A stretch of DNA of 64,000 bases. It comes from Patescibacteria group bacterium (GTDB lineage: Bacteria > Patescibacteriota > JABMPQ01 > JAQVVF01). The notes under the pieces are model-generated. The model was not told the DNA's origin, did no database searches, and worked only from the letters and a program-made list of their open reading frames with translations. Positions 455-58,593 of this stretch are shown in pieces. The stretch covers positions 65,511 through 129,510 of the forward strand of contig JBAZSC010000001.1 of NCBI GenBank assembly GCA_041662665.1, written 5' to 3'. A program made the position numbers and the translations under genes. Each line of letters begins with the position of its first letter. The first letter of the stretch is position 1.

Positions 455-3400
455 ATGAAAAAACAATTCATGAAAAGCATTGTCTTGATGCTTTTTGTGT
501 TGGGATCATTCTGTTTGCTAGGAAGCCAAGCGCTAGCAAAAGATAGCTCAACATGGGGAAAAGTAGGCGTTTCAGGTATGGATGATCAAGTTAGCGCATT
601 AGCAGTATATAATAATGAATTATATGCTGGTGGATTTTTCAGTTCAGCTGACGGTATTGTCAGCAATCAAATTGCAAAATGGAATGGTACAAGCTGGAGC
701 AAAGTTGGCACAGAAGGTATGAATGCTACAATCAGTTCTCTAGCAGTTTACAACAACGAATTATATGCCGGTGGAGATTTTACTACAGCTGATGGTAATC
801 CTGCAATCAAAATTGCAAAATGGAATGGTAGCACTTGGAGCAGTGTTGGTACTTCTGGTATGAGTGGAAGACCTGTTTCTATTGTCTCTTCTTTGACAGT
901 TTACAATAATGAATTATATGCTGGTGGAATTTTCAATACTGTTGATGGAATCGCAGTTGACGGTATTGCAAAATGGAATGGTGTCAGATGGAGTAAAGTA
1001 AGTTCAGGCGAGGTTTCAAGTATTTGGGTTGAAGCTTTAGCAGTTTACAATAATGAATTATATGCTGGTGGACTTTTTACAGGTGCTTTTGGAACAACAG
1101 GAATTGCAAAATGGAATGGAACGACTTGGAGCAAAGTTGGCGCTACAGGTACATCAGATGATGTTTATGCCTTAGCAGTATACGATAATGAATTATATGC
1201 TGGCGGATCTTTTCTTACTGCAGATTTAATTAATGCTAATTATATTGCAAAATGGAATGGTACAGAGTGGAGTAAAGTTGGCACATCAGGAATGGATGAA
1301 GCAGTTTATGCTTTAACAGTTTACAATAATGAATTATATGCTGGAGGATTCTTCGGTTCAGCAGACAGTGTCGTCACCAATCATATTGCTAGATGGAATA
1401 AAACAGCTTGGAACAAAGTTGGCGTTTCTGGATTGAATTCAATAGTTTATGCTTTAGCAGTATATAATGATGAATTATATGCAGGAGGATCTTTCACAAC
1501 AGCTGATGGCATTATTACTAATAATATTGCTTCATGGTACATCGATTATATCGCTCCAGTAACAAAAGCTTCTCCAACAAGTGGAACATACAATACTGCA
1601 AAGTTAATTACTTTGACAACTGATGAACCAGCAACAACATATTACACAAAAGATGGTTCAACTCCAACTACATCTTCAGCAGTTTATACAACTCAAATCA
1701 ATCTTTCAGCCAATACAATTTTGAAATTCTTTTCTAAAGATGTTGTCGGAAATATTGAAACAGTAAAAACAGAAATTTATATTATAGATACAATTGCTCC
1801 AACAACAACTGCATCACCGGTTGCCGGAACATACAAAACAGCTCAAGCTATCACTTTAAAAGCTGTTGATACAAATACTGGAGTTTCAGCAACATATTAC
1901 ACAACAGACGGCTCAACACCAACTACATCATCATCAGTTTATTCTTCACCAATCACAATTTCTCAAAATGCTACTCTTAAATTCTTCTCTAAAGACAATG
2001 TTGGAAATACTGAAACAGTAAAAACAGCAGTTTACGTAATTGATACAGTTGCTCCAACAACAACAGCATCACCAGTTGGTGGAAATTATGCAACAGACCA
2101 AACTGTTACTTTAACAGCGACTGATGACAATTCAGGTGTAAGCGCAACATATTATACACTAGATGGCAAAACTCCAACTACATCTTCTTTAGTTTATTCA
2201 AGCCCAATCAGTCTTACAAGTAATACATCATTGAAGTTTTTTTCTAAAGACAAAGCTGGAAATGTTGAAGCAGTAAAAACAGTAGTTTACGCTATTGATA
2301 AATTAGCTCCAACAACAACTGCATCACCTATTGGCGGAACATACACATCAAATCAAGCAGTTACTTTGACTGCAATTGATACAAATACTGGAGTTAGCGC
2401 AACATATTATACAATAGACGGCTCAACACCGACTGCTTCATCATCAGTTTATTCATCGAAAATAACAATTTCTCAAAATACTACTCTTAAATTCTTTTCT
2501 AAAGATGCAGTTGGAAATACCGAAAATGTAAAAACAGAAATTTATGTTATTGACAAGACAGCTCCTATTACAACAGCTTCTCTAGAAAGTGGAACATATA
2601 CGGAAGCAAAAACAGTAACTTTAACAGCAACTGATGACAATACAGGCGTTTTAGCCACATATTACACAACTGATGATTCAACTCCAACGACATCGTCAAC
2701 AGTTTATTCAGGCCCAATCGCAATTTCCGAAAATACAACCTTGAAATTCTTTTCTAAAGATAAAGCAGGCAATCTTGAAACAGTGAAAACAAAAGTCTAC
2801 GTAATAGATTCATTAGCTCCAACAACAACAGCAACACCAGCTAGTGGAACATACAATTCAATTCAGAATGTTACATTAAAAGCAGTTGATACAAATTCTG
2901 GAATTGCCAAAACATATTACACAACTGACAGCACAACTCCAACCACATCATCATCAGTTTATTCTTCTCCTATTGCAATTTCAAAAACAACAGCTCTAAG
3001 ATTCTTTTCTAAAGATACTGCTGGCAATACAGAATCAGTAAAAACAGAAATTTACGTTATAGACACACAAAGTCCAGTAACTACAGCAACACCAGCTAGC
3101 GGAACATACTCATCAACACAGACAGTAACTCTTAAGGCAGTTGACACTAATACTGGAGTTTCAGCAACATATTATACAACAGATGGCACAATTCCAACTA
3201 CACAATCTTTATCTTACTCAGCTCCAATCGTAATTTCACAGAACACATCTCTAAAATTCTTTTCAATTGATGCAGCTGGAAATAAAGAAGTTGTAAAAAC
3301 TGAAAATTATATTATCACAAATACATTCGTTGATAATTCTGGCAAAAGCGAATTTAATTCAGGAACAACAGTAATTCCATTTGACGAAAAAATTTATCTG

Positions 3401-3970
3401 AGAAATGTTATCTTAGGTCGCACATATTACAGTCCAACATCAAATCTTGAACTTTTCTTCTACAGATTGCCAAGACAAAAAGTAATTCATGATCTATATA
3501 TCAAGATGGTTAGAAACAAGACAGCCTATGATTCAAATTTCAACAAGAAAAAGAGCTATCCAGGATACACTATATTAACTTCAAATATTGGCACAGTCAA
3601 AAAAGATTTGTACAAGAATATTGACAAGCACATTAAATTCAAAGTTGCCATCAGGTATTCACAGAAAAAGTTAAACAAATTGAATCTTAATGAAAAAAAC
3701 CTAAGACTATTCATCAAAAATCGCGATGGCGCATGGCAAGGTCCTTTCACAGTTTACCAGAACACAAAAACCAATGTCCTAAAATTCAAGATCAGAAATT
3801 ACAGACTAAAATCAGAAATAGCGCATGCATTCCCAGCAAATACAGCTAGTATCTCAAGCCTATCTAACAGATCTTTCTCTCCAGCCTTCTATGTCCAGAC
3901 TCTAGAATTCCAAACTCTTGAAAAACTAAAATTCATAATTGCCGAAAAGAATGCAATGCTTGTCAAATAA
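455..3970 (+). CDS. giant secreted surface protein: signal peptide, ~9 YNNELYAGG/KWNG(T)xWS propeller-like repeats, 7 tandem ~86-aa CHB_HEX_C-like domains, K-rich lineage-specific C-terminal domain
   Basis: 1171-aa ORF; N-terminal signal peptide MKKQFMKSIVLMLFVLGSFCLLGSQALA; ~48-aa repeats ALAVYNNELYAGG...IAKWNGTSWSKVG; repeated block ATYYTTDGSTPTTSS.VYS.PI.IS.NT.LKFFSKD.AGN.E.VKT typical of the chitobiase/beta-hexosaminidase C-terminal domain; C-terminal ~200 aa shared with the 32352..34250 paralog. Confidence 0.75.
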   Translation: MKKQFMKSIVLMLFVLGSFCLLGSQALAKDSSTWGKVGVSGMDDQVSALAVYNNELYAGGFFSSADGIVSNQIAKWNGTSWSKVGTEGMNATISSLAVYNNELYAGGDFTTADGNPAIKIAKWNGSTWSSVGTSGMSGRPVSIVSSLTVYNNELYAGGIFNTVDGIAVDGIAKWNGVRWSKVSSGEVSSIWVEALAVYNNELYAGGLFTGAFGTTGIAKWNGTTWSKVGATGTSDDVYALAVYDNELYAGGSFLTADLINANYIAKWNGTEWSKVGTSGMDEAVYALTVYNNELYAGGFFGSADSVVTNHIARWNKTAWNKVGVSGLNSIVYALAVYNDELYAGGSFTTADGIITNNIASWYIDYIAPVTKASPTSGTYNTAKLITLTTDEPATTYYTKDGSTPTTSSAVYTTQINLSANTILKFFSKDVVGNIETVKTEIYIIDTIAPTTTASPVAGTYKTAQAITLKAVDTNTGVSATYYTTDGSTPTTSSSVYSSPITISQNATLKFFSKDNVGNTETVKTAVYVIDTVAPTTTASPVGGNYATDQTVTLTATDDNSGVSATYYTLDGKTPTTSSLVYSSPISLTSNTSLKFFSKDKAGNVEAVKTVVYAIDKLAPTTTASPIGGTYTSNQAVTLTAIDTNTGVSATYYTIDGSTPTASSSVYSSKITISQNTTLKFFSKDAVGNTENVKTEIYVIDKTAPITTASLESGTYTEAKTVTLTATDDNTGVLATYYTTDDSTPTTSSTVYSGPIAISENTTLKFFSKDKAGNLETVKTKVYVIDSLAPTTTATPASGTYNSIQNVTLKAVDTNSGIAKTYYTTDSTTPTTSSSVYSSPIAISKTTALRFFSKDTAGNTESVKTEIYVIDTQSPVTTATPASGTYSSTQTVTLKAVDTNTGVSATYYTTDGTIPTTQSLSYSAPIVISQNTSLKFFSIDAAGNKEVVKTENYIITNTFVDNSGKSEFNSGTTVIPFDEKIYLRNVILGRTYYSPTSNLELFFYRLPRQKVIHDLYIKMVRNKTAYDSNFNKKKSYPGYTILTSNIGTVKKDLYKNIDKHIKFKVAIRYSQKKLNKLNLNEKNLRLFIKNRDGAWQGPFTVYQNTKTNVLKFKIRNYRLKSEIAHAFPANTASISSLSNRSFSPAFYVQTLEFQTLEKLKFIIAEKNAMLVK

Positions 3971-3982: not shown

Positions 3983-4015
3983 AAAAGCCCCGGATTTTCC
4001 GGGGTTTTGTTTTGT
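3983..4015 (+). terminator. rho-independent terminator, same hairpin sequence as 288..320
   Basis: aaaaagccccggattttccggggttttgttttg follows the stop codon; near-identical to the hairpin at 288..320. Confidence 0.7.
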
Positions 4016-4132
4016 AAAATGTTAAGTGTTAAATGTTAATTGTTAAATAAAAAAAGCCTCAAAATAGGCTCTACAATGTGCGATTTTTAATAATGGGTGA
4101 ATTATTGTTTCTTAGAAAATCACCAGCAAGGG

Positions 4133-6828: not shown

Positions 6829-7002
6829 ACCATTTTTGGTCTTTTTTTATGCGAAGTTATCAGTTATAAGTTAACAGTTGACAGTTACGTCGAAAGGCCG
6901 TAACAATTTAACGATTTAACCATTTAGCAATTAGGCAAACAAAAAGACGGAAGTAAATCCGTCTTTTGTTAACAGTTAAATGTTAACAGTTAAAGGTTAT
7001 CC

Positions 7003-7671
7003 TTAGGCATTATAACCAACAGCTCTAGCATTATCCAAAACTTGGTTTACATACCAGTCTGCGTGGTTATAAGCATAGATAGCGCTATAAATATCGCCAT
7101 TGCTTGCACCAGAAGCAGCTAAATAATTAGCAGCTGAATAGATGGCATCATCAGAGTCACCAATATTGGCAACTCCATCACCATCACCATCAACACCATA
7201 CATAGCCCAAGTTGATGGAATGAACTGCATTGGACCTTGCGCACCAGCGTAAGATGCAACGAAAGTATCACCAGATCTATGTGTTTCAATTAAATGAACA
7301 CCAGATAGAATTTGCCATGGAACACCATATTTTTCACCAGCAGCTTTGTATACATTATCAAAGCCAGTAGTATCAGGTGTTTTAGCTAATTCTAATTCTT
7401 TTTTAGCTTTCTCAGCATTCTCTTTAGCTTTAGCTAATTTAGCTTTTTTAGCTTCTTTTTTCATTTCAATTTTTTCTTTATTAATGCCATATTGCGCATT
7501 AAATTCAACTTTTTTGTTCAATCTATTTTCCAACATCGTAGCTTTAGACAATTTAGTATTGTCAATTTTAGCATTTGATATAGTTGGGAATAGTGCCATT
7601 GTCAAAAAGGCAACAGCAGAGATTAAAGTTAAGTATTTTTTCAAGTGATTGAAAGCAGCATCATGCCCCAA
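7003..7671 (-). CDS. secreted lytic murein transglycosylase (MltB/SLT_2-type catalytic domain) with K/A/E-rich coiled-coil linker
   Basis: Signal peptide; C-terminal YGVPWQILSGVHLIETH...GAQGPMQFIPSTWAMYGVDGDGDGVANIGDSDDAIYSAANYL matches the MltB-family lytic transglycosylase signature. Confidence 0.7.
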   Translation of the reverse strand: MGHDAAFNHLKKYLTLISAVAFLTMALFPTISNAKIDNTKLSKATMLENRLNKKVEFNAQYGINKEKIEMKKEAKKAKLAKAKENAEKAKKELELAKTPDTTGFDNVYKAAGEKYGVPWQILSGVHLIETHRSGDTFVASYAGAQGPMQFIPSTWAMYGVDGDGDGVANIGDSDDAIYSAANYLAASGASNGDIYSAIYAYNHADWYVNQVLDNARAVGYNA

Positions 7672-9861: not shown

Positions 9862-10005
9862 CTTTTGTTAGTCTTTTTTTACCAAAAAAAAGGACAAAAC
9901 ATTGTTTTGCCCTTAATAAAATTAAAAATATTTATTATTCAATATTCAATTCTTTAAACTACTGCAACTAAAGTTGCACGAACCCTGGCTAAAGCCAGGT
10001 ATAAA

Positions 10006-11532: not shown

Positions 11533-11717
11533 AATTTTCGAATTATAAATTAAAAATAACTAAATAACTAAATTAGAAAAGAGGAAACAGAAAACAGAAA
11601 TTCGTTATTACTGTTTTCTATTTTCTGATTTCTAAATTCACAGCGATTGACAAGATACATATTTAATGATATACTTTTTTTGGTTATCTGCAACAGGAAG
11701 AAAAGGAGGATGACAAC

Positions 11718-12065: not shown

Positions 12066-12521
12066 TTATTTTCTAGCTTTCTTAAATTCCAGCACAATCA
12101 TAATAATAATTCCGCTAATTATGTATAAATCAGCCAAGTTTAACACGCTTAAATTAAATAGGTGAATATAATCAACCACAAAACCTCTAAAAACTCTATC
12201 AATTAAATTTGAAAAAGCTCCAGCAATGACTAGCATCAATGAAAATAAAACAATAAAATTCATCTTTTTTAATTCTTGCTGAAATTTTTGCAATAAAAAA
12301 TATAATATTAAGAAAATTACGATATACATAATCACTTTTGGCATCGGCAAGCCAAAAGCAACGCCAAGATTCTGAAAAGAAGCAATTCCAAAATTATTAT
12401 TCAAAACAAAAAAACCATCTTGAGGAAGATAGTTTACAACAATAAATTTAAATAATTGGTCAATAAAAATAAGAATTAAACCAATTAAAATCAAATATAT
12501 AATTTTTGTTTTGTTTTTCAT
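12066..12521 (-). CDS. lspA: lipoprotein signal peptidase (signal peptidase II)
   Basis: Four TM helices; conserved NLGVAFG, FSNLIDR and VVDYIHL motifs of LspA. Confidence 0.8.
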   Translation of the reverse strand: MKNKTKIIYLILIGLILIFIDQLFKFIVVNYLPQDGFFVLNNNFGIASFQNLGVAFGLPMPKVIMYIVIFLILYFLLQKFQQELKKMNFIVLFSLMLVIAGAFSNLIDRVFRGFVVDYIHLFNLSVLNLADLYIISGIIIMIVLEFKKARK

Positions 12522-12522: not shown

Positions 12523-12652
12523 AATATAATACAAATATACGAATTTATGCAAATTTACGAATATGCAAATCGTCGATAAACAAAATTCGCATATTCGTAA
12601 CATTTGCAAATAATTTTACTGTAACGAAAAATTATTCGTAAATTCGTATTAT
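12523..12652. repeat. palindromic MITE-like element (TACGAAT family), copy A; the arm next to lspA forms its promoter/5'UTR
   Basis: Two ~50-bp arms in inverted orientation (aatataatacaaatatacgaatttatgcaaatttacgaatatgcaaat / atttgcaaat...attcgtaaattcgtattat); related copies at 53194..53300, 57449..57502 and 58415..58530. Confidence 0.5.
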
Positions 12653-13005
12653 TTTTTTGCGCACTCTATGCAATAAGTCGCAGTTGGATTTGCTTCTAAT
12701 CTTGCTTTATCGATCATTTTATTGCAATTCTCGCATTTACCAAAAGTGCCTTTTTTAATCCTATCTAAAGCATTATCTACGTCTTTTAATTTTTGTTCTA
12801 AGTTTCCTTCAACAGACAAATTGCTATCATAAAGAGAGACTTCAGCAGCTTCAGCTGTATTATCAAAGATTGGATCGCCAAAATTTTTGAATTTTGGATC
12901 ATAATCATCTTTGGCTTTTGGATCTTTTGTCGCAACATCGCCCAAGCTCTTTTGAAGTTGTTGTTTTTCTTTTTCTAATTTGTCTTTTATATTGTTGTCT
13001 TGCAT
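12649..13005 (-). CDS. DksA/TraR-family C4 zinc-finger protein
   Basis: C-terminal CENCNKMIDKARLEANPTATYCIECAKK (CxxC-17-CxxC) preceded by a coiled-coil region. Confidence 0.75.
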   Translation of the reverse strand: MQDNNIKDKLEKEKQQLQKSLGDVATKDPKAKDDYDPKFKNFGDPIFDNTAEAAEVSLYDSNLSVEGNLEQKLKDVDNALDRIKKGTFGKCENCNKMIDKARLEANPTATYCIECAKK

Positions 13006-13280
13006 AAATTTTATTTTTAAATGTCTAGTAACTTAATTCTAGCATAAAATTAAATAAAAATCTAGGCGAAATTGCTCAATTGTTCATTTGTTAAATTGTT
13101 AAATCGTTGATTAAAGTTCCTATCCCACACCAAATGCAACTAGAAAAAATAGTTATATCACAGATTAAATGTATTTTAGAAAGAAAATGTTTTTCGTTAC
13201 TTTAACGGCATTTGGTGCGGGATTGTAAATTAAGCATGTTTTTTCTACGCCTGCGGGCTTGAAAAAAATGCTTTCTTTAC

Positions 13281-13310
13281 AAAAAAAACGGGCGCCAGAG
13301 GGCGCCCGTT
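13281..13310 (-). terminator. rho-independent terminator oriented for a minus-strand transcript (cgggcgcc-agag-ggcgcccg; T-run on the minus strand)
   Basis: Perfect 8-bp GC stem; the minus strand reads ...cgggcgccctctggcgcccgtttttttt; a second AT hairpin lies at 13231..13268. Confidence 0.65.
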
Positions 13311-13700
13311 AAAAATATTTAATGGCGCTCTGGCACCCGTGGGAGCTATATCTTACCGCCTTTCTCCTACTTGTGAATGATCACGTAGAATAAGGGCAGG
13401 ATTTAGCGATATAACCCATACAAGGTGCACAAGAAGCCTGATAGTTCTTCAATGTGTCTGTTCTCTCACCGTCCTTCTGGCTTTTGATCTATTTTGGATC
13501 TTGGCCTAAATTTTTGTTTTTGGTTTTTTGACTCCACTTGTTCTGGAGTATAAAGTGCGATTTTGCGGGTGTATCAGCACCCTTAACGGACAGAGAGAGC
13601 AGAATATCGAGTTACTAGTAACTAGTCACTAGTAACTGGCATTCTGCTCGCCCTGTACGGTCGCAGAAAAATAAATTTTTATAAGATATCTCGTTTTCTA
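13311..13700 (-). ncRNA. candidate structured non-coding RNA of unknown class in an ORF-free 1.2 kb region
   Basis: No ORF of 60 aa or more between 13006 and 14211; the region ends at a strong minus-oriented terminator; GC-richer than surrounding intergenic DNA, with multiple local stems (e.g. gagcagaat/attctgctc, gggtg..caccc). Confidence 0.2.
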
Positions 13701-14039
13701 CTTTTTTGTGGCCCTATGCAGATCAAATGGCTAGGCCATTGCAGATAAGCACGGGTAGTTGAATAGGGAAATGTCATAATTCATCTCACGAAATATATTT
13801 TTCCACTCAGGATAGCAAAAGAAAAATGTTCTTTTGGCGAGTCTTAAAATCATTTTAGCTTTTTTCTATGTTTATAAGTATTTCTACTCTGCAACGCGTC
13901 AAAGAGCAGACTCTACATCAGTAACTACAAAAAATCGCAGAAAGCCTAATTTGATTCTGACTAGCTCAAATTGTGAAAAAACGTTTTTGTTTTTGTTTCT
14001 ACATATATTATAGCATAAAATAACGTTTCATTCAAACCT

Positions 14040-14170
14040 TATTATAAATAAAAATGAAAGCTTAACAAAGCCAATCCACAAGTTATCAACAGCGAACACA
14101 AAAGTTATACACAGGCAATGTTTATAACTTTTATAGTTTTAAACAGCATATCTACAACTTATCCACAGGT
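14040..14170. promoter_or_regulatory. cluster of DnaA-box-like 9-mers (TTATCAACA, TTATACACA, TTATCCACA, plus AATCCACA) with a flanking AT-rich tract; candidate oriC or DnaA-regulated region
   Basis: Three TTATNCACA-class boxes in the same orientation within 85 bp, adjacent to ttattataaataaaaatg. Confidence 0.45.
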
Positions 14171-14211
14171 TAGGAACAATTTAAGTAATAAAAAAATCCA
14201 GATAACTGGAT

Positions 14212-17391: not shown

Positions 17392-17544
17392 TAGTAGAAT
17401 ATTAGAAATTGAATATTAGAAATTAAAACTAAAAATGTTAAACCTATTTTAACACGATAATATCTAATTTCCAATTTCCAATATTTTCATGAATAAAAAA
17501 ATAAACATATAATTTTGTAAATCGTTATTAGACATTTTTCACGA

Positions 17545-20954: not shown

Positions 20955-21145
20955 AAAATATTCGGAAATTATATCATTTTTCGTTAAATTATATTAACAC
21001 GCCGATATTCAAATATCAATATCACCGACGTTTTAGATATTCGGAAATTATCTTTTTAAAAAGTACGTGGTTATTAAATTAGTAATATCCGAATATCAAA
21101 ATATCCGTAATATCAACACGCTTTGGATATTACGGATATTAAATT
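20955..21145. promoter_or_regulatory. five copies of a 13-15 bp motif ATATTCGGAAATT / AATATCCG(A/T)AATAT in both orientations; putative operator array upstream of 20314..20916
   Basis: aatattcggaaattat (20961), gatattcggaaattat (21034), aatatccgaatatc (21087), aatatccgtaatatc (21106), gatattacggatatt (21127). Confidence 0.4.
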
Positions 21146-21178
21146 TTATTAAACATTTTAAAACGTAAAACAGAAAAT

Positions 21179-22744: not shown

Positions 22745-22819
22745 ACGTGAAGTAACTAGTAATAAGTAATAAGTAACTTTTAACTAGTCGTTTAGTTACT
22801 AGTTACTGATTACTAGTTA

Positions 22820-24433
22820 CTATTTAACGGTTATCTCTGCATCAATAAAATTACCTGACCATTTGCGGTTTTTGGTAATTCTTATTGCTCCTAATGATTG
22901 TGCTAAGCTTGCAGTATTTTTATCTCCTCCAAAATTTGAAGATAATTTTAACAAATCATCAATCGAAATAAAAATCAATTGTTCAGTTTTGGAATTTGCT
23001 AGTTCCTTAAAATCAGCGTCGCTATTCAATTTATCATCAGATTGAAAATTATCCAAGATCTTTTCGCTACTGAAAATCACAAGTTTATCATCCTTTACAA
23101 AATACCCAAGATCAAATGCTTTTTTCGGCAAATTCATTATTTTGTATGTAATATCTTTGTTTTTTCTAGTAATAAAATTTGCATCCTTATCATCATTTAA
23201 ATATTTTTTAATCAACTTTGCTAAAGATCCTTCTACCTTATTAAATTTTTCTTGAGCATTATCTTTGCCTTTAATATCAATCATCAAAGCCACTCTTATT
23301 TTTTCATTAGTAAAATCAGGAGCTAAATATATGCCATATTGTCCGCTCAGCAAATCTAAAAATTCATTCAGATCAATTCCATAGTCAAGCTCTACGCCTC
23401 TAGATATTAAAGCAAATTCTGCATTTGGATCTGGCGAATTGCCAGCTACAAAACTTGTTAACGTTGGTTTTAAACTTGCGCCTTCCATATAGAATGCAGT
23501 ACTTTCCGAAACAAAATCCGCAAATTTAGGTTTTATTTTTTTATTGTCGCTTATTTTATATAATTCTGGCATATAGATCTTTGCCAGAATTTTATCATCT
23601 GAAGCTGAAAACTTTGCACCAGCATAATATTTTCCGCCAATTTCTTTCAATTTTCCCATAATATCATCATCTAGCTTCAAATTAGACTTCAAAAAGACTT
23701 TCATTAATTCCAGCACATCTCCATAAACAAAAACTACTCCATCTTGATTATTTAATTTATTCTTCGCTTTTTTATATTTTCCGTCGTAAGCCAAAGCTTT
23801 GCCATTGCCTAATTTTGTATCAATCATTTTTTTCAAACCATCAGGAAATTCAGAAACTAATAAATAATTATCATAAATGGCATAAGTAAGGTTATTTTTT
23901 CTGGTAATATTTGTAATTTCATTTCCTCTAAAGTCTTCCTTGGCAACTACATAGCCTTTTTTCTCAAGATTATCATCAAAAATATTCAAAAAATTATTTA
24001 GTAAATCTCGATTTTTAATTTCAACTAGAAAAATTTTAGAAAATCGATCATTTGTCACTCGAATATTGCCAACAGCAATTTTTTTGCCAAGCCAACCATA
24101 AAAAGTATTTTCATCAATTTTTAAATCATCTGGCGTTATTCCAGCAAGTACCAAGCTTTGCAAATAATCGCTAAAAGTTTTGTCATTGCCCATTCTTTTG
24201 GCAATTTCTGTTAATTTTACATTTTGTTTAGAATCTTTATTAATATCTACTATTGCAAATGAAATCAAGTCATTCGGCACAAAAGATTCCATACTCTTCT
24301 TAGCAATATTATTGGAATACATCGCAAAAATCATTCCCAAACCAAAAATAAGAACAAGCAAAATTGCAATTATAATTATTAGTTTCTTGTTTCTTTTTTG
24401 ATTTTGAAGATATTGTTTTCGACGTTTTGACAC
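22820..24433 (-). CDS. single-pass membrane protein with large extracytoplasmic domain; tandem paralog of 21179..22744
   Basis: N-terminal TM LIIIIAILLVLIFGLGMIFAMY; 537 aa. Confidence 0.5.
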   Translation of the reverse strand: MSKRRKQYLQNQKRNKKLIIIIAILLVLIFGLGMIFAMYSNNIAKKSMESFVPNDLISFAIVDINKDSKQNVKLTEIAKRMGNDKTFSDYLQSLVLAGITPDDLKIDENTFYGWLGKKIAVGNIRVTNDRFSKIFLVEIKNRDLLNNFLNIFDDNLEKKGYVVAKEDFRGNEITNITRKNNLTYAIYDNYLLVSEFPDGLKKMIDTKLGNGKALAYDGKYKKAKNKLNNQDGVVFVYGDVLELMKVFLKSNLKLDDDIMGKLKEIGGKYYAGAKFSASDDKILAKIYMPELYKISDNKKIKPKFADFVSESTAFYMEGASLKPTLTSFVAGNSPDPNAEFALISRGVELDYGIDLNEFLDLLSGQYGIYLAPDFTNEKIRVALMIDIKGKDNAQEKFNKVEGSLAKLIKKYLNDDKDANFITRKNKDITYKIMNLPKKAFDLGYFVKDDKLVIFSSEKILDNFQSDDKLNSDADFKELANSKTEQLIFISIDDLLKLSSNFGGDKNTASLAQSLGAIRITKNRKWSGNFIDAEITVK

Positions 24434-24600
24434 ATTTTTACAATTAACATTTTACAATTAACATTTAACAAATTTTAAAAAAGTTAATAGTTAATTGTTA
24501 ACGGTTAATTGTTTTAATTATATCTTACAAAAACTTTCCTCGCAAATTTTAAATATAAATAAAAAAAGGCTCGTTAGAACCTTACAGGATAGAACAATCT

Positions 24601-25462: not shown

Positions 25463-25839
25463 TCTGCCTCCTTGCCTCTCGTTGTTGAGAGGAACAATAA
25501 AATATTACATAATTAACATAAAATGTCAATCCAAATAGTCTTGCCAAAATTAAATTCATTTGGTATAATTAAAATATAAAATATAGTAAAAACTATATTA
25601 GTTTAGTTTACAATAATTAATACGCTATTTTGGCCAAAGCTTTTGCTAGTGCTAAAATAGTCGCGAATTTCGTTTAATTTAAACTTCGTTCAGCGTAATC
25701 CATCAGGATAATCCGCATGTTATCCGCACGAATCCGTGCAAACATGGATTAAATAATTAGACGTGGTTTACGCAAAACATTTTTAAAGATAGCGAAAGGT
25801 CATAAAATTATGTTGAGCAAGAAAAAAAAGACTTCTTTA

Positions 25840-26169
25840 ATGAAGAAGTATGCAACTCACAAAGGTGACACAGGTTCACCAGAAGTACAAATTGCAATTT
25901 TAAGCGCAGAGATCGAAGAATTAACAGAACATTTAAAGACTCATCGCAAAGATAATTCTTCAAGAAGAGGTTTATTAGGCAAAGTTCACCAAAGAAGAAA
26001 ATTGATGACTTATTTATCTAAAGAAGATGAAAAACGTTATCAAACAATCATTAAGAAGTTAAAACTTAAAAAAATCAAAGAAGAAACAGAAGCAGAAAAG
26101 AAAAGAAGTGAAGAAATCAGCAAAATCGCCGAAAATCAAGATGCAGAAATTGATGAAGATATGGAATAA
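25840..26169 (+). CDS. rpsO: 30S ribosomal protein S15 with ~30-aa K/E-rich C-terminal extension
   Basis: [51 protein letters not shown] matches the S15 signature; the ORF-track start at 25810 is an alternative. Confidence 0.8.
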
Positions 26170-26180
26170 AGCACCAAAAG

Positions 26181-26272
26181 TTTCTGCGTTTTCTGCGTTC
26201 ATTTCTGCGTTATTCTGCGTTAAAGTCTTGAATGCAGAAATACGCAGAATCTGACGCAGAAGACGCAGAATT
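26181..26272. repeat. palindromic array of four TTCTGCGTT octamers followed by four ACGCAGAA octamers (large imperfect hairpin after rpsO)
   Basis: ttctgcgttttctgcgttcatttctgcgttattctgcgtt ... gcagaaatacgcagaatctgacgcagaagacgcagaa; a half copy lies at 61755..61795. Confidence 0.5.
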
Positions 26273-26392
26273 TATTTAACGAAATTTATATTAATTAATC
26301 AAAATTTTTTCTTAAATTGATGTTCAAATAGTCAGACTAGATTTTTAAGACAGTCTGTAATTTGAACGTCAAAGAGAAAGAATTAAAAACAA

Positions 26393-28510
26393 ATGCTAAA
26401 TTTGTTCAAGAAAAGTACAGGTCCAAAAGAATTTGAAATGATTCTTGGCGACCGAAAATTGTCGATCAAGACAGGTGAGCTAGCACAGCAAGCTAATGGT
26501 GCAGTTTTAGTCCAATATGGTGAAACTGCTATTTTGGCTACATGCGTTATCTCGGGTTCAGTTCGACCAGATGTAAATTATTTTCCATTAATGGTTGATT
26601 ACGAAGAAAAACTATATGCTGGTGGAAAAATTAAAGGTTCAAGATTTATCAAACGCGAAGGCAAGCCTTCAGATGAATCAATTATCAAAGCTAGAATTAT
26701 TGATCGTTCAATTAGACCATTATTTCCTCAACACATTGTTAATGATATTCAAGTAATTATTGAAGTTCTATCAGTTGATGGCGAAAATGATGCTGATATT
26801 GTTGGTTTAGTTGGCGCATCTGCTGCTTTAGCTATTTCAGACATTCCATTTAACAAAATTATCGGTGCAGTTCGAATTGGCAGAGTCAATGGCGAATTAG
26901 TTTTAAATCCAACATTTGCTACACGTGAAAAATCAGATTTAGATTTGATTGTTTCAGCTTCAAAAGAAAAAACATTAATGATTGAAGCTCAAGGACATGA
27001 AGTTGAAGAGCAAGATATGTTCAAAGCAATAGAATTTGCTAAGAAAAACATTGTTTCAATTATTGAATTTTTAGAAAAAGTTCAAAAAGAAGTTGGCAAG
27101 AAAAAGAATGAAGTTCCAGTTCCAGAAATTCCAGCTGGTTTAGAAGATGGCGTCAAAAGTGCAATGATGGATCGCTTAAGTAAAATTCTATATGAAGGCC
27201 CAACTAGAGTTCGAAAACATGAAGTTTATGCATTATGTGATACAGTTGCTTGTGAATTGTCAGAAAAATTTGGCGAAGATTGCAAAGGCTTAATTAATGC
27301 TGAATGCCACAGATTTTCTGAAATTTTCGTTCGCGACAATATTTTAAATAACGATAAAAGAGTTGGCAATCGTAAAATGGACGAAGTTCGAAAATTAGAA
27401 GGCAAAGTTTCAATGTTGCCAAGAGTTCATGGTACTGGCTATTTCAAAAGAGGCGGTACACAAGTTTTGACAATCACAACTTTGGGAGCACCTTCAGATA
27501 AACAAATTATTGAAGATGCAGAAGAAGAATACAAGAAGAGATATATGCATCATTACAATTTCTTGCCTTTCTCAGTTGGCGAGACTTCACCACTTCGCGG
27601 TCCGTCCCGTCGCGATATCGGTCATGGCATGTTAGCAGAAAAAGCTTTAGAGCCATTATTGCCAAAAGAAGAAGATTTTCCATACACAATGAGATTAGTT
27701 TCTGAAGTTTATTCTTCAAATGGCTCAAGCTCAATGGCATCTGTTTGCGGTTCTTCATTATCTTTAATGGATGCTGGTGTTCCAATCAAAGAACAAGTTG
27801 CTGGCATTGCTATGGGCATGGCTTCAACTGATGATAATAATTATAAAATTCTTACAGATTTGCAAGATCTTGAAGATTCAGAAGGCGGAATGGATTTCAA
27901 AATTGCTGGTACAAAAAATGGCATTACAGCTATTCAATTAGATACAAAGACTTTAGGCTTAACAGATTCAATGGTTTTAGACACTTTGAATCAAGCAAAA
28001 ACAGCCCGAATACAAATTTTGGACGTGATGAACAAGATTATTGCACAGCCTCGTAAAGATTTATCTAAGTACGCTCCAAGAATTTATACTATTCATATTA
28101 ATCCAGAAAAGATCAGAGATGTAATAGGACCAGGCGGAAAGATGATTAATAAGATCATTGAAGAAACATCAGCTGAAATTGACATCGAAGATGATGGAAC
28201 AGTATTCATTACTTCAAATGACAAAGCCAAGGCAGAAAAAGCTCTTGCTTGGGTCAAAGATCTAACAAGAGAAATCAAAGTCGGTGAGATCTTTGTTGGC
28301 AAGGTAGTTAGAATCATGAACTTCGGTGCCTTTGTCGAGCTATTTCCAGGCAGTGATGGTCTTATCCATATTTCAAAATTAGCGCCTTATCGCGTTAATA
28401 AAGTAGAGGATATCGTCAAGCTTGGTCAAACTGTCAAAGTCAAAGTACTTGAAATAGACAGTGAAGGCAGAACAAATCTAGGACTGATCAACGAGAATAA
28501 TAAGAAATAA
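26393..28510 (+). CDS. pnp: polyribonucleotide nucleotidyltransferase (PNPase)
   Basis: Two RNase PH domains, then KH (IGPGGKMINKIIEETSAEIDI) and S1 (GEIFVGKVVRIMNFGAFVEL) domains; follows rpsO as in the conserved rpsO-pnp operon. Confidence 0.9.
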   Translation: MLNLFKKSTGPKEFEMILGDRKLSIKTGELAQQANGAVLVQYGETAILATCVISGSVRPDVNYFPLMVDYEEKLYAGGKIKGSRFIKREGKPSDESIIKARIIDRSIRPLFPQHIVNDIQVIIEVLSVDGENDADIVGLVGASAALAISDIPFNKIIGAVRIGRVNGELVLNPTFATREKSDLDLIVSASKEKTLMIEAQGHEVEEQDMFKAIEFAKKNIVSIIEFLEKVQKEVGKKKNEVPVPEIPAGLEDGVKSAMMDRLSKILYEGPTRVRKHEVYALCDTVACELSEKFGEDCKGLINAECHRFSEIFVRDNILNNDKRVGNRKMDEVRKLEGKVSMLPRVHGTGYFKRGGTQVLTITTLGAPSDKQIIEDAEEEYKKRYMHHYNFLPFSVGETSPLRGPSRRDIGHGMLAEKALEPLLPKEEDFPYTMRLVSEVYSSNGSSSMASVCGSSLSLMDAGVPIKEQVAGIAMGMASTDDNNYKILTDLQDLEDSEGGMDFKIAGTKNGITAIQLDTKTLGLTDSMVLDTLNQAKTARIQILDVMNKIIAQPRKDLSKYAPRIYTIHINPEKIRDVIGPGGKMINKIIEETSAEIDIEDDGTVFITSNDKAKAEKALAWVKDLTREIKVGEIFVGKVVRIMNFGAFVELFPGSDGLIHISKLAPYRVNKVEDIVKLGQTVKVKVLEIDSEGRTNLGLINENNKK

Positions 28511-34250: not shown

Positions 34251-34383
34251 AAACATTTTAAACAGGCTGAAAAAAAGCCTGTTTTTGTTTTGCTCAAAAA
34301 ATTGCTATACTGAAGTTAGGAAACAGAAAATAGTTAACTACGGCGTAACTGTTTTCTGTTTCCTGTTTTCTAAAATTAACACT

Positions 34384-36066: not shown

Positions 36067-36266
36067 AGCTCGCGATAAGTAATGTCAAATTTTGACTTTT
36101 GAAAGAACTAGAGATCCACAAAAAATGCTATTATTGAAAATAAGCCTTGATTTTTAGTTATTTTTAGTATATAATTTTGACATTAACACTTAACTTTTAA
36201 CATTTAACAGTTAACTTTCTTTAAAGTTTGTTAATTGTCAATTGTTAAAGGTTAAGTGTTAGAAAC

Positions 36267-36338: not shown

Positions 36339-36426
36339 ATTTTAAACAGTTAACAATTAACATTTAACAGTTAACTTTTGCTAAAGTTGTTAAGTGTTAA
36401 TTGTTAATGGTTAACTGTTTTAGAAT

Positions 36427-37530: not shown

Positions 37531-37685
37531 TTTTCTATACAAATAAGTTTCTAAAAGTTTCCAAACAATTCACTTCTCTATGATTTACCAAAGAACAAAA
37601 CTAAAACCTCGGCTAATCATTTAGACATATTTTTAAAAACCTTAAAAATATCTTAGCCGCGGCAACGCGGTTTTTTCAACCTTAC

Positions 37686-37730
37686 ACTTAACACTTAACA
37701 CTTAACACTTAACACTTAACACTTAACGAA
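37686..37730. repeat. six tandem CACTTAA heptamers in the 23S leader
   Basis: cacttaacacttaacacttaacacttaacacttaacacttaa. Confidence 0.8.
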
Positions 37731-38327: not shown

Positions 38328-38369
<42 letters not shown>

Positions 38370-38943: not shown

Positions 38944-38975
<32 letters not shown>

Positions 38976-49265: not shown

Positions 49266-49395
49266 AATTTTCAATTCTCAATGATCAATTTACAATAAAT
49301 TTTCATTTTACAATTTTCAATTAGGCTAAATGAAAATTGATCATTGGAAATTGATTGAAAATTGAAAATTGGTAATTGAAAATTAAAAAAATAAA
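49266..49395. repeat. palindromic AT-rich spacer repeat (TTTTCAAT/ATTGAAAA family), copy 1
   Basis: aaaattttcaattctcaatgatcaatttacaat...attgaaaattgaaaattggtaattgaaaattaaaaaaataaaATG; sister copy at 50344..50483. Confidence 0.45.
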
Positions 49396-53095: not shown

Positions 53096-53193
53096 CACAA
53101 TAAAAATATATTTTTATTTGAACAGTTTGCCAAGCTATTGCCTAGGCAGACAAAACAGGGCGTTTTAATTAAGCGCCTTGTTTTATTTATGGT

Positions 53194-53300
53194 AAAATAT
53201 AATACGAATCTACAAATGTATGCAAATCAACAAATATACGAATTCGCGAATATTTGCATATTCGTAGATTAGCATAAATTCGTAGATTCGTATTACATTA
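53194..53300. repeat. palindromic MITE-like element (TACGAAT family), copy B; forms the promoter/5'UTR of 53304
   Basis: aatataatacgaatctacaaatgtatgcaaat ... tttgcatattcgtagattagcataaattcgtagattcgtattacatt; centre acgaattcgcgaat. Confidence 0.55.
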
Positions 53301-56728: not shown

Positions 56729-58363
56729 CTATCTAAGTTCGTATATTCTACAATATTTACTCTCAAATACTTTTTCAAATTTAGAATCATCATCAAACAT
56801 ATAATAAACTTTTTTGTTTTTATTATTAACTAAAACATAGTTAGATTTAAAATCATTTTTAATTATCGAATAAGCTTTATCTTCATTTTTAGAAATATCT
56901 TGCCATTTATTATAAATATCTAAATCATAATTATAAGTAAAAGTTGGATCTAATCCAAAGCCATAATAATTATCGCTATTATTCAAAAATAATGGTGGAA
57001 AATCGCTCCAATCCAAATTCAAAATTATAGAATTTTTTGGAGTATTTTTTTTAAGCCAATTAGCTGCTTTTTCCAAATCTGGCACATTTTTTGCCGAAGA
57101 ATTTCCGACACTGGCTTGAGTTGTAATAATATTGCTAACACCAATAGATATAATTGTCACCACAATAACAACAAATGCCAAAGTCTTAACAAACAAAATA
57201 TAATATTGCTTCAGCCAAGTTCTGAAAGAATAGAAATGTTGCTTATTTTCTAAAACAATCAAAATTTGTTTAAGCCATTTTTGAAAATCAATTTTCTTTA
57301 ATAAGTCACTCAAGCAAAAAGCGCCAAAAAGTAAACAAAATGGCACCATTAATTCAACAAATCTTTGAGATCTCAATGTCAAAGCAAAGAATAAAGTCGC
57401 AATTATAAAAAGAGTTATTTTAAATGCAAACAGCTCTTTTTTTATTGACGATATTCGCATATTTGCAACATTTGCATACATTCGTAAATTCGTATTATAT
57501 TTATTTAGAATAATTTCGATTAACAAGATAATTACACCAGCAATATATACTGCAATAGCCAGGAAATTATTGACCAAAAAATCCCAATCTTTGAATGGAT
57601 ACCATTCTGCTCCAACTGGAATTTTGGTAAATGGTCCAGTACCTAAAACTTGAATTTTCAAAAAAGAATAAAAATTCTTGGCATATGGATTTGCAAAAAT
57701 ACTTAAAGCAATTGATCCAAAGCAAACTAAAAATTCTTTCCATTCAAATTTCCTAGCAAAAATCAATTTACTTAAATAAAATACAACTGCAAAAATAATT
57801 AAAAAGACAAAGCCACCATACAACCAGACATAGAAAAATGAAAATAGAGCAATCATTAAATATTTCAGCCACTTATTTTTAAAATCATAATAAAAGCTAA
57901 ACAAAATCATTATCAAGAAAAATAAAGACAAAGCAGGCACGCGAATTAAAATCATTCTAAACATAAAAGAAGTCGAGCTTCCCAATAATAAAATTGCCCA
58001 CCAAAAAGAAAATGTAATTTTGTTTTTTTGTAAAATAAAATAAAAGGCAAGTGTTGCTAATGAGGCAAACAAAATTTCAGCAACTTTTGCGCCAATTATT
58101 GGATCAAATGCCACAAATGGAATCAACAATATGTGAAACAGAAAATGATGATCAACATAATGATCTTTCAAGGTAGAGAATTGCATCCATGGAAATTCTT
58201 GATGAACAATATTTCCATTAATCATCATTTCTGTTATTTTGACATGATAATAAGAATCAGGACACAAAAATAATTCCAGTGAAAATTGCAAAATAGAGAA
58301 GACGATTACAGCAATCAAAAAAACCAAAACATATTTTAAAATTTTCAAATTTTTTTCTTTCAT
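56729..58363 (-). CDS. large polytopic membrane protein (GT-C/ArnT-PMT-like putative glycosyltransferase) containing an in-frame copy of the TACGAAT repeat
   Basis: 544 aa; first periplasmic loop LFLCPDSYYHVKITEMM resembles the GT-C D-x-Y/E motif; 57449..57502 encodes ...YNTNLRMYANVANMRISS... from the repeat element. Confidence 0.45.
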   Translation of the reverse strand: MKEKNLKILKYVLVFLIAVIVFSILQFSLELFLCPDSYYHVKITEMMINGNIVHQEFPWMQFSTLKDHYVDHHFLFHILLIPFVAFDPIIGAKVAEILFASLATLAFYFILQKNKITFSFWWAILLLGSSTSFMFRMILIRVPALSLFFLIMILFSFYYDFKNKWLKYLMIALFSFFYVWLYGGFVFLIIFAVVFYLSKLIFARKFEWKEFLVCFGSIALSIFANPYAKNFYSFLKIQVLGTGPFTKIPVGAEWYPFKDWDFLVNNFLAIAVYIAGVIILLIEIILNKYNTNLRMYANVANMRISSIKKELFAFKITLFIIATLFFALTLRSQRFVELMVPFCLLFGAFCLSDLLKKIDFQKWLKQILIVLENKQHFYSFRTWLKQYYILFVKTLAFVVIVVTIISIGVSNIITTQASVGNSSAKNVPDLEKAANWLKKNTPKNSIILNLDWSDFPPLFLNNSDNYYGFGLDPTFTYNYDLDIYNKWQDISKNEDKAYSIIKNDFKSNYVLVNNKNKKVYYMFDDDSKFEKVFESKYCRIYELR

Positions 58364-58593
58364 GAATATAATTTTAGCATAAACTTAAAAATATAAAAAA
58401 CTAGAAATATAAAAAAATATTCGAGTTCGTATTAGTGGTATTCGAAAAGTTATTCGATTTATTCGAAAAAGCATTAGAGTGAGGCAGTATCTAGTATTCG
58501 TATGTGCCTATTCGCTAAGGCTTTTCGCATACAAAAAAAACAGGCTAGGGAGTTCGCTTTCGCAAACTATAGTCTGTTAAAAAAAAGTACAAT

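What the first reader, a model, noticed from the sequence alone, without database searches (positions are those of the whole stretch)
12523..12652. Dispersed palindromic MITE-like repeat family (TACGAAT arms) that doubles as a promoter/5'UTR module for lspA and two membrane-protein genes
Related ~105-130-bp elements occur at 12523..12652, 53194..53300 and, more degenerate, 58415..58530. A half copy lies at 57449..57502. Each full copy is an imperfect palindrome whose arms contain TAATACGAAT..TACGAAT..TGCAAAT. The arm next to a gene start always ends ...gcatattcgta(a/g)at..gcataaattcgta.at..gtatta.att..ATG. This holds for lspA (minus strand), the 53304 membrane protein and the 56729..58363 membrane protein (via the 58415 copy). 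It points to a shared TTGCAT..TAAATT promoter plus leader delivered by a repeat element, or to a co-regulated envelope regulon with a conserved operator.
Basis: seen in the sequence. Interest (0 to 1): 0.7.

Follow-up and report, generated by a model that had tools for sequence, protein, structure and literature searches.

The report
Palindromic repeat elements at gene junctions
The TACGAAT palindromes are real copies of a small non-coding repeat found widely in ultra-small (CPR/Patescibacteria) bacteria; they were recently inserted exactly between genes, and once in frame inside a gene, so they are mobile-type passengers and not the control site of an envelope regulon.

Summary
The repeat family is real, but only three of the four reported loci belong to it. 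These are two full palindromes (12527-12651, 53200-53295) and one single arm (57447-57501). The 58415-58530 locus is only a loose one-directional ATTCG word array.

Related genomes show the copies are insertions:
- The dksA-like/lspA junction is 2-11 nt in three relatives. Here it holds the 125-nt palindrome.
- The single arm is a 48-nt in-frame insertion, absent from all six homologues aligned.
- The DUF2079 site holds a different palindrome family in one relative.

The same architecture occurs in dozens of CPR genomes. It sits flush between a stop codon and an ATG, ahead of rplP, rplO, rpsL, rpsG, fusA, yidC, fpg and others, so an envelope regulon is not supported.

The family is one of at least nine word-periodic palindrome families that fill this window's intergenic gaps. 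Sister families lie downstream of mapped consensus promoters, as tRNA and rRNA leaders.

The arms carry a weak TTTGCA-N16-TATTAT match. I found no compensatory covariation and no strand bias in G-U pairs, so the pattern fits decaying copies of a master element. Promoter activity remains possible but unshown.

Verdict: a MITE/REP-like element family, apparently undescribed in CPR, with an unusual stop-to-start placement.

The parts
12527..12651 (.). TACGAAT palindrome A (125 nt). It fills the dksA-like/lspA junction. Left arm 12527-12565 (lspA-proximal); right arm 12586-12651, interrupted by a 22-nt insertion at about 12610-12631.
   Evidence: The junction is 2-11 nt in L125/L126, L128 and L129.
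12649..12651 (-). TAA stop codon of the dksA-like gene (12649-13005). It is the first three bases of the element terminus TAATACGAAT.
   Evidence: The same arrangement occurs in L039, L041, L052, L082, L086, L095 (TAA) and L043, L119 (TGA).
12526..12553 (-). Sigma-70-like match TTTGCA-N16-TATTAT in the lspA-proximal arm. The hexamer ends 4 nt before the lspA ATG (12519-12521).
   Evidence: 9 of 12 matches; site count not above shuffles.
53200..53295 (.). TACGAAT palindrome B (96 nt). It lies between the terminator of the T4SS-pilin gene and the DUF2079 gene ATG at 53304. Distal arm 53200-53243; proximal arm 53252-53295.
   Evidence: (I13). L121 has a TACGAAT palindrome at the orthologous site; L122/L123 have an AATTTCT-family palindrome.
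53190..53198 (+). TGGTAAAAT, an extended -10-like motif just upstream of palindrome B. It is conserved in three genomes whichever palindrome follows. If used, the palindrome is a 5' leader.
   Evidence: read from the sequence; function inferred.
53152..53184 (+). Classical G+C-rich intrinsic terminator of the upstream pilin gene, separate from the palindrome.
57447..57494 (-). 48-nt in-frame insertion of one TACGAAT arm into ORF 56729-58363. It adds about 16 residues (..NTNLRMYANVANMRISS..). Similarity to the family continues to 57501 through the flank TTATATT.
   Evidence: Absent from P0002-P0007, including homologues of 83-87% identity. No fold of its own.
58415..58530 (+). One-directional array of ATTCGnn words. 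It resembles the family only at word level and is not a member by HMM. It is shorter in L124 and absent from L121 and L122.
58364..58385 (-). TGCTAAAAT-N7-ATG start region of gene 56729-58363, a leaderless-type arrangement conserved in four genomes and independent of the repeat.
36183..36266 (+). Sister family (TTAAC heptads). This palindrome starts 7 nt after the TTGATT-N17-TATAAT promoter match and abuts the 5' end of tRNA-Arg. It shows that palindromes of this class can be transcribed leaders.
49266..49386 (+). Sister family (TTTTCAA/AATTTCT heptads). This palindrome fills a cistron junction that is only 12 nt in relative L122.

Best explanation
The TACGAAT elements are copies of a small, non-coding, palindromic dispersed repeat of the MITE/REP kind.

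Anatomy: each arm is four to five ATTYGYA words spaced 8-10 nt apart and ends ...ATTCGTATTATATTT. Two arms placed back to back make a 95-125-nt palindrome.

Distribution: the family is shared by many CPR/Patescibacteria lineages. It is one of at least nine word-periodic palindrome families that occupy this genome's intergenic spacers.

Shown: copies are gained and replaced on the time scale of 7-20% protein divergence. They survive only where an insertion does no harm:
- exactly between the stop codon of one gene and the ATG of the next, with the element's terminal TAA serving as the stop codon;
- between a promoter and an ATG;
- rarely, in frame inside a gene.

Inferred:
- They are transcribed as part of host mRNAs and can fold into a long hairpin.
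- New copies land in A/T-rich targets that resemble the element's own terminus (AAATAYAA), with no recognisable target duplication, by an unidentified enzyme or by template switching.
- Any outward promoter activity (TTTGCA-N16-TATTAT) is a side effect, not the reason they exist.
For: Insertion polymorphism.
- The dksA-like/lspA gap is 11, 5 and 2 nt in L125/L126, L128 and L129. It is 127 nt and filled by the palindrome in the window. In the closest relative, L127, it is filled by unrelated repeats.
- The 48-nt arm in ORF 56729-58363 is absent from all six homologues aligned.
- The DUF2079 upstream site carries TACGAAT in the window and L121, but an AATTTCT-family palindrome in L122/L123, with conserved flanks.
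- Other junctions are empty in one genome and filled in another.

Family beyond this genome.
- At least 120 loci carry the exact 18-mer: 60 are labelled CPR and 26 Bacteroidota.
- Flanking words are conserved beyond the 18-mer.
- Window arms match arms of unrelated genomes at 76-92% while the neighbouring genes show no DNA similarity.

Placement.
- 18 of 70 class-1 hits have an ATG opening an ORF of at least 60 aa within -1 to +9 nt, against 2.4% of random intergenic positions (p about 5e-14).
- In 8 elements the upstream gene's stop codon is the first three bases of the element.

Downstream genes are housekeeping genes of all kinds.

Pattern expected of decaying copies of a master element.
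- An element's own arms are no more complementary than arms taken from different elements (0.270 against 0.268; permutation p 0.48).
- There is no sense-strand excess of G-U pairs (42 against 36).

Sister palindromes lie downstream of consensus promoters as tRNA and 23S leaders.
Against: - No transposase or RAYT-like gene is present in the window or in the syntenic loci.
- No target-site duplication could be defined.
- Only 2.5 copies occur in 64 kb.
- Arm sequence is conserved across very deep CPR lineages, which is unusual for neutral passengers and hints at a sequence-level function.
- All genes that directly follow a palindrome lack a Shine-Dalgarno motif, so the element may contribute to expression.
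- Arms also occur singly, in tandem and, in sister families, in both polarities. That fits word-level function as well as it fits mobility.
- The rest of the 645-kb contig could not be surveyed.
Confidence: 0.65

Rival explanations
1. Portable promoter for leaderless or near-leaderless mRNAs. The outward-facing end of each arm is a sigma-70-type promoter (TTTGCA-N16-TATTAT, or TARATT one word upstream) that starts transcription at or just before the adjacent ATG.
For: - TTTGCA-N16-TATTAT is present in three of five arms.
- The ATG sits 4-9 nt after GTATTA in many genomes.
- Genes that follow palindromes lack a Shine-Dalgarno motif, while other genes have AAGGAGG.
- This genome clearly uses leaderless-type TGnTAAAAT-N7-ATG starts.
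- lspA lost its 2-11-nt coupling distance when the element arrived.
Against: - The hexamer ends only 4 nt from the ATG in the commonest arrangement. The genome's clear leaderless starts have 7 nt.
- The DUF2079-proximal arm has TATTAC and lacks the N16 arrangement.
- Promoter-like counts are not above shuffles.
- The distal arms would fire antisense.
- One arm lies inside an ORF on the antisense strand.
- The element sits inside S10, spc and str ribosomal operons, which need no internal promoter.
- Sister palindromes abut tRNA 5' ends, where a -10 element cannot work.
Confidence: 0.25
2. Structure-selected RNA element. The transcribed hairpin acts as an intercistronic processing, stabilising or coupling device. 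For example, it could be an RNase III site, or a fold that brings the upstream stop codon next to the downstream ATG so that re-initiation survives a 100-nt insert.
For: - The folds are very stable (z -5 to -10.5).
- The placement is flush from stop codon to ATG in the window and in at least five other genomes, including ribosomal operons.
- Sister families are transcribed leaders.
- All three genomes keep a palindrome at the convergent gap 56596-56728, although the words differ.
Against: - No compensatory covariation between the arms of the same element.
- No sense-strand G-U excess.
- For B the antisense strand folds better than the sense strand.
- Single arms and tandem arms exist.
- A flush position also follows trivially from insertion into a 2-12-nt spacer.
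Confidence: 0.2
3. Arrays of binding sites for a conserved nucleic-acid-binding protein. The ATTCGTA words, not the palindrome, would be the functional unit, as with heptad operators of ribbon-helix-helix repressors or the proposed readers of TAACTGA repeats. This includes the first reader's operator/regulon reading.
For: - Word-level conservation in each arm is independent of its partner arm.
- Arms occur singly, in tandem and inverted.
- The same words occur directly before ATGs in Bacteroidota without a palindrome.
- A literature precedent exists for heptamer repeats before SD-less start codons (PMC4679880).
Against: - At least nine different word families in 64 kb would need many cognate proteins in a genome whose recovered contig is only 645 kb.
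- Sites are gained, lost and swapped between families at the same locus.
- The downstream genes are functionally unrelated.
- One copy lies inside an ORF.
- No candidate regulator lies next to any copy.
Confidence: 0.1
4. Chance similarity of A/T-rich low-complexity sequence.
For: The genome has about 32% G+C, and intergenic regions are rich in short periodic words.
Against: - 7 hits against 0.30 expected.
- 87-92% identity over 51-53 nt between copies and to other genomes.
- HMM E-values down to 1.6e-8.
- The words contain CG.
Confidence: 0.01

Closest known systems
Correia elements (CREE/NEMIS), the MITEs of Neisseria
   Same: Palindromic, non-coding elements of about 100-155 bp, dispersed in intergenic regions and often right next to genes. 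Correia elements are co-transcribed with genes, are reported to create outward promoters at their ends and to be RNase III substrates, and differ in presence between strains (from my own knowledge of the literature).
   Different: Correia elements have defined 26-bp terminal repeats with a TA duplication and hundreds of copies in one genus. Here the arms are built from repeated 8-10-nt words, no duplication is seen, copy number per genome looks low, and the family spans many CPR lineages. Many sister families also share the same sites.
REP/BIME extragenic palindromes of enterobacteria and pseudomonads
   Same: Imperfect palindromes inside operons between cistrons. They are transcribed, can protect upstream mRNA, and occur as several families per genome.
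   Different: REPs are about 35 nt, G+C-rich, carry a conserved GTAG head and are tied to RAYT transposases. None of these features is seen here.
Rickettsia palindromic elements (RPE)
   Same: Small repeat elements in reduced genomes that are found inserted in frame in protein-coding genes without destroying them.
   Different: RPEs insert as whole 100-150-bp palindromes and are restricted to Rickettsia. Here a single 48-nt arm is in the ORF, and most copies are intergenic.
TAACTGA heptamer repeats (MacGregor 2015, PMC4679880) and cyanobacterial STRR heptamer arrays
   Same: Short tandem words within a few nucleotides upstream of start codons that lack Shine-Dalgarno motifs. They precede unrelated, even ribosomal, genes, occur also in Bacteroidetes, and their function is unknown.
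   Different: Those are exact direct repeats of one heptamer. Here imperfect words of variable spacing form two inverted arms with a conserved 50-nt consensus, and filled/empty sites show insertion as a unit.
Heptad operators of the omega repressor (pSM19035, ribbon-helix-helix)
   Same: Arrays of 7-bp words in direct and inverted orientation overlapping promoters. This is a model for how word arrays could be read (from my own knowledge).
   Different: That system has one plasmid-borne protein and one word. No such protein or coherent target set was found here.

Membership tests
MITE (miniature inverted-repeat transposable element) | Small (under about 500 bp) and non-coding | tested here: met
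   96 and 125 nt. No ORF, and no Rfam family at the gathering threshold.
MITE (miniature inverted-repeat transposable element) | Terminal inverted repeats | tested here: met
   TAATACGAAT...ATTCGTATTA. The arms are 83% complementary over 52 nt in B (I13).
MITE (miniature inverted-repeat transposable element) | Multiple dispersed copies | tested here: met
   Five arms at three loci in the window. Several copies per genome in others, e.g. REEB144 and CAZULS01. The full 645-kb contig was not surveyed.
MITE (miniature inverted-repeat transposable element) | Insertion polymorphism (filled and empty sites) | tested here: met
   lspA junction, in-ORF arm, and a family swap at the DUF2079 site.
MITE (miniature inverted-repeat transposable element) | Target-site duplication | tested here: inconclusive
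   No duplication of 3 nt or more at the in-ORF site. Other sites are too diverged. TA/TAA at both ends cannot be told apart from the repeat itself.
MITE (miniature inverted-repeat transposable element) | Autonomous partner element with matching ends, encoding a transposase | tested here: not met
   No transposase domain in the window ORFs scanned or in the syntenic loci. Only a Xer-like tyrosine recombinase at 34285-35313. This covers the window only; the rest of the genome was not searched.
REP/BIME | Imperfect palindrome of about 20-40 nt with a conserved GTAG-type head, associated with a RAYT gene | tested here: not met
   Arms are 40-60 nt, A/T-rich, with no GTAG head. No Y1 transposase in the window.
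Sigma-70-type promoter | -35 and -10 hexamers 16-18 nt apart, with a start site 6-8 nt downstream | tested here: inconclusive
   TTTGCA-N16-TATTAT (9 of 12) in three of five arms. The site count is not above shuffles, and there are only 4 nt to the lspA ATG.
Sigma-70-type promoter | Mapped transcription start | not testable with these tools
   No transcript data available.
Operator of a regulon | Motif kept upstream of orthologous, functionally linked genes | tested here: not met
   Absent at lspA in three relatives. Replaced at DUF2079 in L122. Downstream genes elsewhere are unrelated.
Structured cis-regulatory RNA | Base pairs kept by compensatory change | tested here: not met
   Own-arm against cross-element complementarity is 0.270 against 0.268 (p 0.48). 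G-U pairs number 42 on the sense and 36 on the antisense strand.
Tandem heptamer repeats (STRR / TAACTGA type) | Head-to-tail exact repeats of one 7-nt unit | tested here: not met
   TACGAAT arms are not picked up by the period-7/8 scan and have 8-10-nt irregular spacing. Sister families (TTAAC, AATTTCT) do meet the criterion.

The most novel reading that the evidence does not exclude
CPR bacteria may carry a previously undescribed, phylum-wide system of interchangeable palindromic cassettes built from 7-10-nt words. The cassettes are slotted exactly between a stop codon, which the cassette itself supplies, and the next ATG, even inside the S10, spc and str ribosomal operons. The cassettes would be functional. 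Folding would bring stop and start together, or the words would recruit a factor, giving Shine-Dalgarno-independent re-initiation or near-leaderless expression of the downstream gene. Different cassette families would be functionally equivalent and so could replace one another at the same junction.
Probability: 0.2. Interest if true: 0.8.

Novelty: new variant of a known kind. Interest (0 to 1): 0.6.

Why it matters
CPR genomes are usually described as streamlined and poor in mobile DNA, and almost nothing is known about how they start transcription and translation.

This work shows that their intergenic spacers, including junctions inside ribosomal-protein operons, are populated by several families of palindromic repeats that turn over between close relatives. 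That gives three things:
- a marker for recent genome dynamics and a cause of assembly breaks (the Logan re-assembly contig L132 ends in the 56596-56728 convergent-gap palindrome);
- a caution for gene callers, because start codons, stop codons and in-frame inserts are supplied by repeats;
- a concrete set of sites where SD-less initiation after a long hairpin could be tested.

If the cassettes turn out to be functional, they would be a new solution to gene expression in reduced genomes.

Tried and rejected
- Known RNA families. Rfam at the gathering threshold finds nothing at the elements. At E up to 1 it finds only sub-threshold eukaryotic miRNA hairpins.
- Phage or virus vector. There is one 18-mer hit in IMG/VR, in a giant-virus bin, and no blastn match to phage records.
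- Paralogue comparison to test the in-ORF insert. The three neighbouring membrane proteins are not paralogues. Homologue search solved this instead.
- RNA-strand test. G-U counts and folding energies show no consistent sense-strand advantage.
- Arm covariation test. Negative.
- Cross-domain spread. The one locus labelled as archaeal (L007, Pacearchaeota) encodes RecO, a ClpB-like protein and GatB, so it is bacterial.
- Literature. No paper in the held library links Patescibacteria with promoters, leaderless mRNA, MITEs or these sequences.
- Intrinsic terminator. No G+C-rich stem plus T-run lies at the elements. A separate classical terminator precedes palindrome B.
- Close relatives of the window among the 120 pattern loci. 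None were found; only the repeats themselves match.

Full report
**What is in the sequence**

The window is A/T-rich (about 32% G+C). It carries a 23S rRNA gene with two LAGLIDADG intron ORFs, a 5S gene and three tRNA genes. A protein look-up places it in a 645-kb contig of a MAG labelled "Patescibacteria group bacterium".

Reading the reported coordinates confirms three loci:
- an imperfect palindrome at 12527-12651;
- an imperfect palindrome at 53200-53295;
- one isolated arm near 57447-57501.

The statistics support a real family. The core ATTCGTARATTCGTATTA with up to three mismatches occurs 7 times against 0.30 expected. The gene-proximal arms of the two palindromes are 87% alike over 53 nt. 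All arms align to the consensus ATTCGCATATTCGTAAnATTTGCATACATTCGTAnATTCGTATTATATTT. A profile built only from other genomes finds exactly these five arms and nothing else in 64 kb. The palindromes fold far better than shuffles (z -5.0 to -10.5), while the single arm does not (z -0.1).

The fourth reported locus, 58415-58530, is not a member. Its ATTCGnn words all point one way and away from the gene it was said to serve. The profile does not detect it.

An independent assembly of the same sample is identical across all these regions.

**The copies are insertions**

LspA homologues were found and their contigs fetched. In three relatives (LspA 84%, 83% and 67% identical) the dksA-like gene and lspA are separated by 11, 5 and 2 nt. 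In the window the gap is 127 nt and is the palindrome. The palindrome's first three bases (TAA) are the stop codon of the dksA-like gene, and its other end is 5 nt from the lspA ATG. The closest relative (93%) has the same gap filled by quite different repeats.

The isolated arm lies inside ORF 56729-58363, in frame. Six homologues, including ones of 83-87% identity, lack exactly these 16 residues. The DNA alignment shows a clean 48-nt insertion between AAATAYAA and AATAAAAAAAG with no evident duplication. The target resembles the element's own terminus AAATATAA.

Syntenic loci from two relatives were fetched. The site between the pilin-gene terminator and the DUF2079 ATG carries a TACGAAT palindrome in the window and in L121. 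In L122/L123 it carries an AATTTCT-family palindrome, between conserved flanks. Other junctions in the same block are empty in one genome and filled in another.

**The family is CPR-wide and not tied to envelope genes**

I estimate that a uniform-composition database of this size would give a few tens by chance, but the hits are structured:
- 60 are labelled as CPR lineages (Saccharibacteria, Roizman-, Falkow-, Wolfe-, Nomura-, Buchanan-, Moranbacteria and others) and 26 as Bacteroidota.
- In the CPR loci the 18-mer is the outer end of the same kind of arm, usually with an inverted partner.
- Window arms match arms of unrelated genomes at 76-92% identity while the flanking genes share no DNA similarity.

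Placement is also non-random. In 18 of 70 such hits an ATG opening a long ORF lies within -1 to +9 nt, against 2.4% of random intergenic positions (p about 5e-14). In eight palindromes the upstream gene's stop codon is the first three bases of the element.

The genes that follow are L16, L15, S12, S7, an EF-G-like GTPase, YebC, Fpg, YidC, a class I tRNA synthetase and Rpe. The element has therefore colonised cistron junctions of the S10, spc and str operons. This rules out an envelope regulon.

**The wider context in the window**

Almost every intergenic gap holds a long imperfect palindrome built from short periodic words. There are 30 period-7 arrays against at most 1 in shuffles. I count at least nine word families: TTAAC, AATTTCT/TTTTCAA, AAATCCT, TAGTAAC, GAATNAA, ACGCAGA, ATATCCG, GAAAACA and CAAATTCC.

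The loci from other genomes show the same habit, and partly the same words.

For two sister palindromes the transcriptional context is clear. A TTGATT-N17-TATAAT promoter match ends 7 nt before the TTAAC palindrome that abuts tRNA-Arg. A perfect TTGACA-N17-TATAAT match lies upstream of the palindrome that precedes the 23S gene. These palindromes are therefore transcribed leaders, not promoters.

Genes directly preceded by palindromes lack a Shine-Dalgarno motif, whereas many other genes have AAGGAGG. The genome also uses TGnTAAAAT-N7-ATG starts, which look leaderless.

**Promoter, structure or passenger?**

The promoter reading has some support. The consensus scan finds TTTGCA-N16-TATTAT in three of five arms. 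Several points weaken it:
- The counts are not above shuffles.
- The hexamer ends 4 nt from the lspA ATG, against 7 nt in the clear leaderless starts.
- The DUF2079-proximal arm has TATTAC.
- A TGGTAAAAT conserved in three genomes lies just upstream of palindrome B, which would make that palindrome a 5' leader.

The structure reading is also weak. G-U pairs are not enriched on the sense strand (42 against 36). For palindrome B the antisense strand folds better. Across 30 full elements, an element's own arms are no more complementary than arms from different elements (0.270 against 0.268, p 0.48). This is what copies of a palindromic master sequence decaying independently would show. It is not what a hairpin kept by compensatory change would show.

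The flush stop-to-ATG position also follows simply from insertion into spacers of 2-12 nt.

I therefore favour a selfish or near-neutral MITE/REP-like element that is tolerated at these sites (confidence 0.65). Promoter activity (0.25) and a coupling or processing role of the fold (0.2) are non-exclusive additions that remain untested.

**Comparison with known systems, and novelty**

The closest analogues are:
- Neisseria Correia elements, for size, palindromy, co-transcription and reported outward promoters;
- REP/BIME, as intercistronic palindromes;
- Rickettsia palindromic elements, for in-frame insertion;
- the TAACTGA and STRR heptamer repeats found just upstream of SD-less start codons in Beggiatoaceae, cyanobacteria and Bacteroidetes (PMC4679880).

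The MITE criteria of small size, inverted termini, dispersed copies and insertion polymorphism are met. Target duplication is inconclusive, and no autonomous partner was found in the window. The REP, operator and structured-RNA criteria that I tested are not met.

No paper in the held library describes such repeats in CPR. I rate this as a new variant of a known kind, of moderate to good interest (0.6). The least ordinary aspects are:
- conservation of the arm sequence across CPR;
- interchangeable families at the same junction;
- the exact stop-codon-to-ATG placement inside essential operons.

Noticed in passing
window 4012-4049, 6855-6993, 24436-24509, 36183-36266, 36343-36426, 37669-37780, 43439-43522 (TTAAC); 17395-17495, 42204-42340, 46444-46582, 49266-49386, 50349-50476 (AATTTCT/TTTTCAA); 44741-44850, 56596-56728 (AAATCCT); 13608-13641, 22745-22825 (TAGTAAC); 54936-55005; 26228-26275 and 61751-61798; 20990-21150; 11575-11650: Nearly every intergenic gap holds a long imperfect palindrome made of 7-nt periodic words. 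There are at least nine word families and 30 period-7 arrays, against at most 1 in shuffles. The palindromes flank both tRNAs, the 23S and the 5S genes.
   Followed up: partly
window 45406-45520: The left arm of a CAAATTCC-word palindrome lies inside the 3' end of ORF 44848-45471, so this repeat also contributes coding sequence.
   Followed up: no
window 37811-42183, ORFs 39860-40321 and 41209-41685: The 23S rRNA gene is 4373 nt against a 2925-position model. It contains two LAGLIDADG homing-endonuclease ORFs, which are probably intron-borne. No 16S gene is present in the window.
   Followed up: partly
window 13006-14211: A 1.2-kb gene-free stretch with G+C-rich hairpins and DnaA-box-like nonamers (TTATACACA at 14105, TTATCCACA at 14159). 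No Rfam family reaches the gathering threshold. The gene-strand switch and GC-skew minimum are elsewhere, at about 25.5 kb.
   Followed up: no
window 60605-60678; L122 13281-13371: A G+C-rich hairpin repeat GTCATTCTGAGC...GCTCAGGATGAC precedes tRNA-Leu in the window. In relative L122 the same family fills the DUF2079/next-gene junction. Variants (GTCATTGCGAG...) lie next to TACGAAT arrays in L088, L090 and L112.
   Followed up: no
window 9964-9998, 7424-7437; L127 404-558: Mini-hairpins of the form NNNNCT(A/T)AAGNNNN recur in the window. Several of them fill the dksA-like/lspA junction of the closest relative.
   Followed up: no
L003, L004, L011, L018, L027, L032, L037, L080, L092 (Bacteroidota loci): A conserved leader-like block AACACAG-ATTCGTAAATTCGTATTAATTCGTTATCCGTACC sits directly before the ATGs of unrelated genes. 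It uses the same words as the CPR family, as four direct repeats and mostly without an inverted partner.
   Followed up: no
L007, L017, L065, L070, L088, L094, L100, L104, L107, L109, L110, L112: In a second subfamily the 18-mer is the inner part of a longer arm ATTCGTAAATTCGTATTAGATTCGTAATTCGTTGAT. It is shared by loci labelled Omnitrophota, Bacteroidia and several CPR lineages.
   Followed up: no
L007 (contig DAOSAR010000001.1): The contig is labelled Candidatus Pacearchaeota, but the locus encodes RecO, a ClpB-like ATPase and GatB. It is therefore probably bacterial (mislabelled or mis-binned).
   Followed up: partly
window 58364-58385; L121 9975-10000; L122 9975-10000; L124 1715-1740: A start region TG(C/G/T)TA(A/G)AAT followed by 7 nt and the ATG, with no Shine-Dalgarno motif, is conserved in four genomes. 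It looks like a leaderless-mRNA promoter.
   Followed up: partly
window 455-3970 and 32352-34250: Two large ORFs are built from 141-nt and 255-nt tandem coding repeats (Rax2-like propeller and CHB_HEX_C domains). They are probably repetitive surface proteins.
   Followed up: no
window 25810-28510: This is an rpsO-pnp pair with a 223-nt spacer that holds an ACGCAGA-word array (26228-26275). In E. coli the corresponding spacer carries the RNase III-cut hairpin that autoregulates pnp (from my own knowledge).
   Followed up: no
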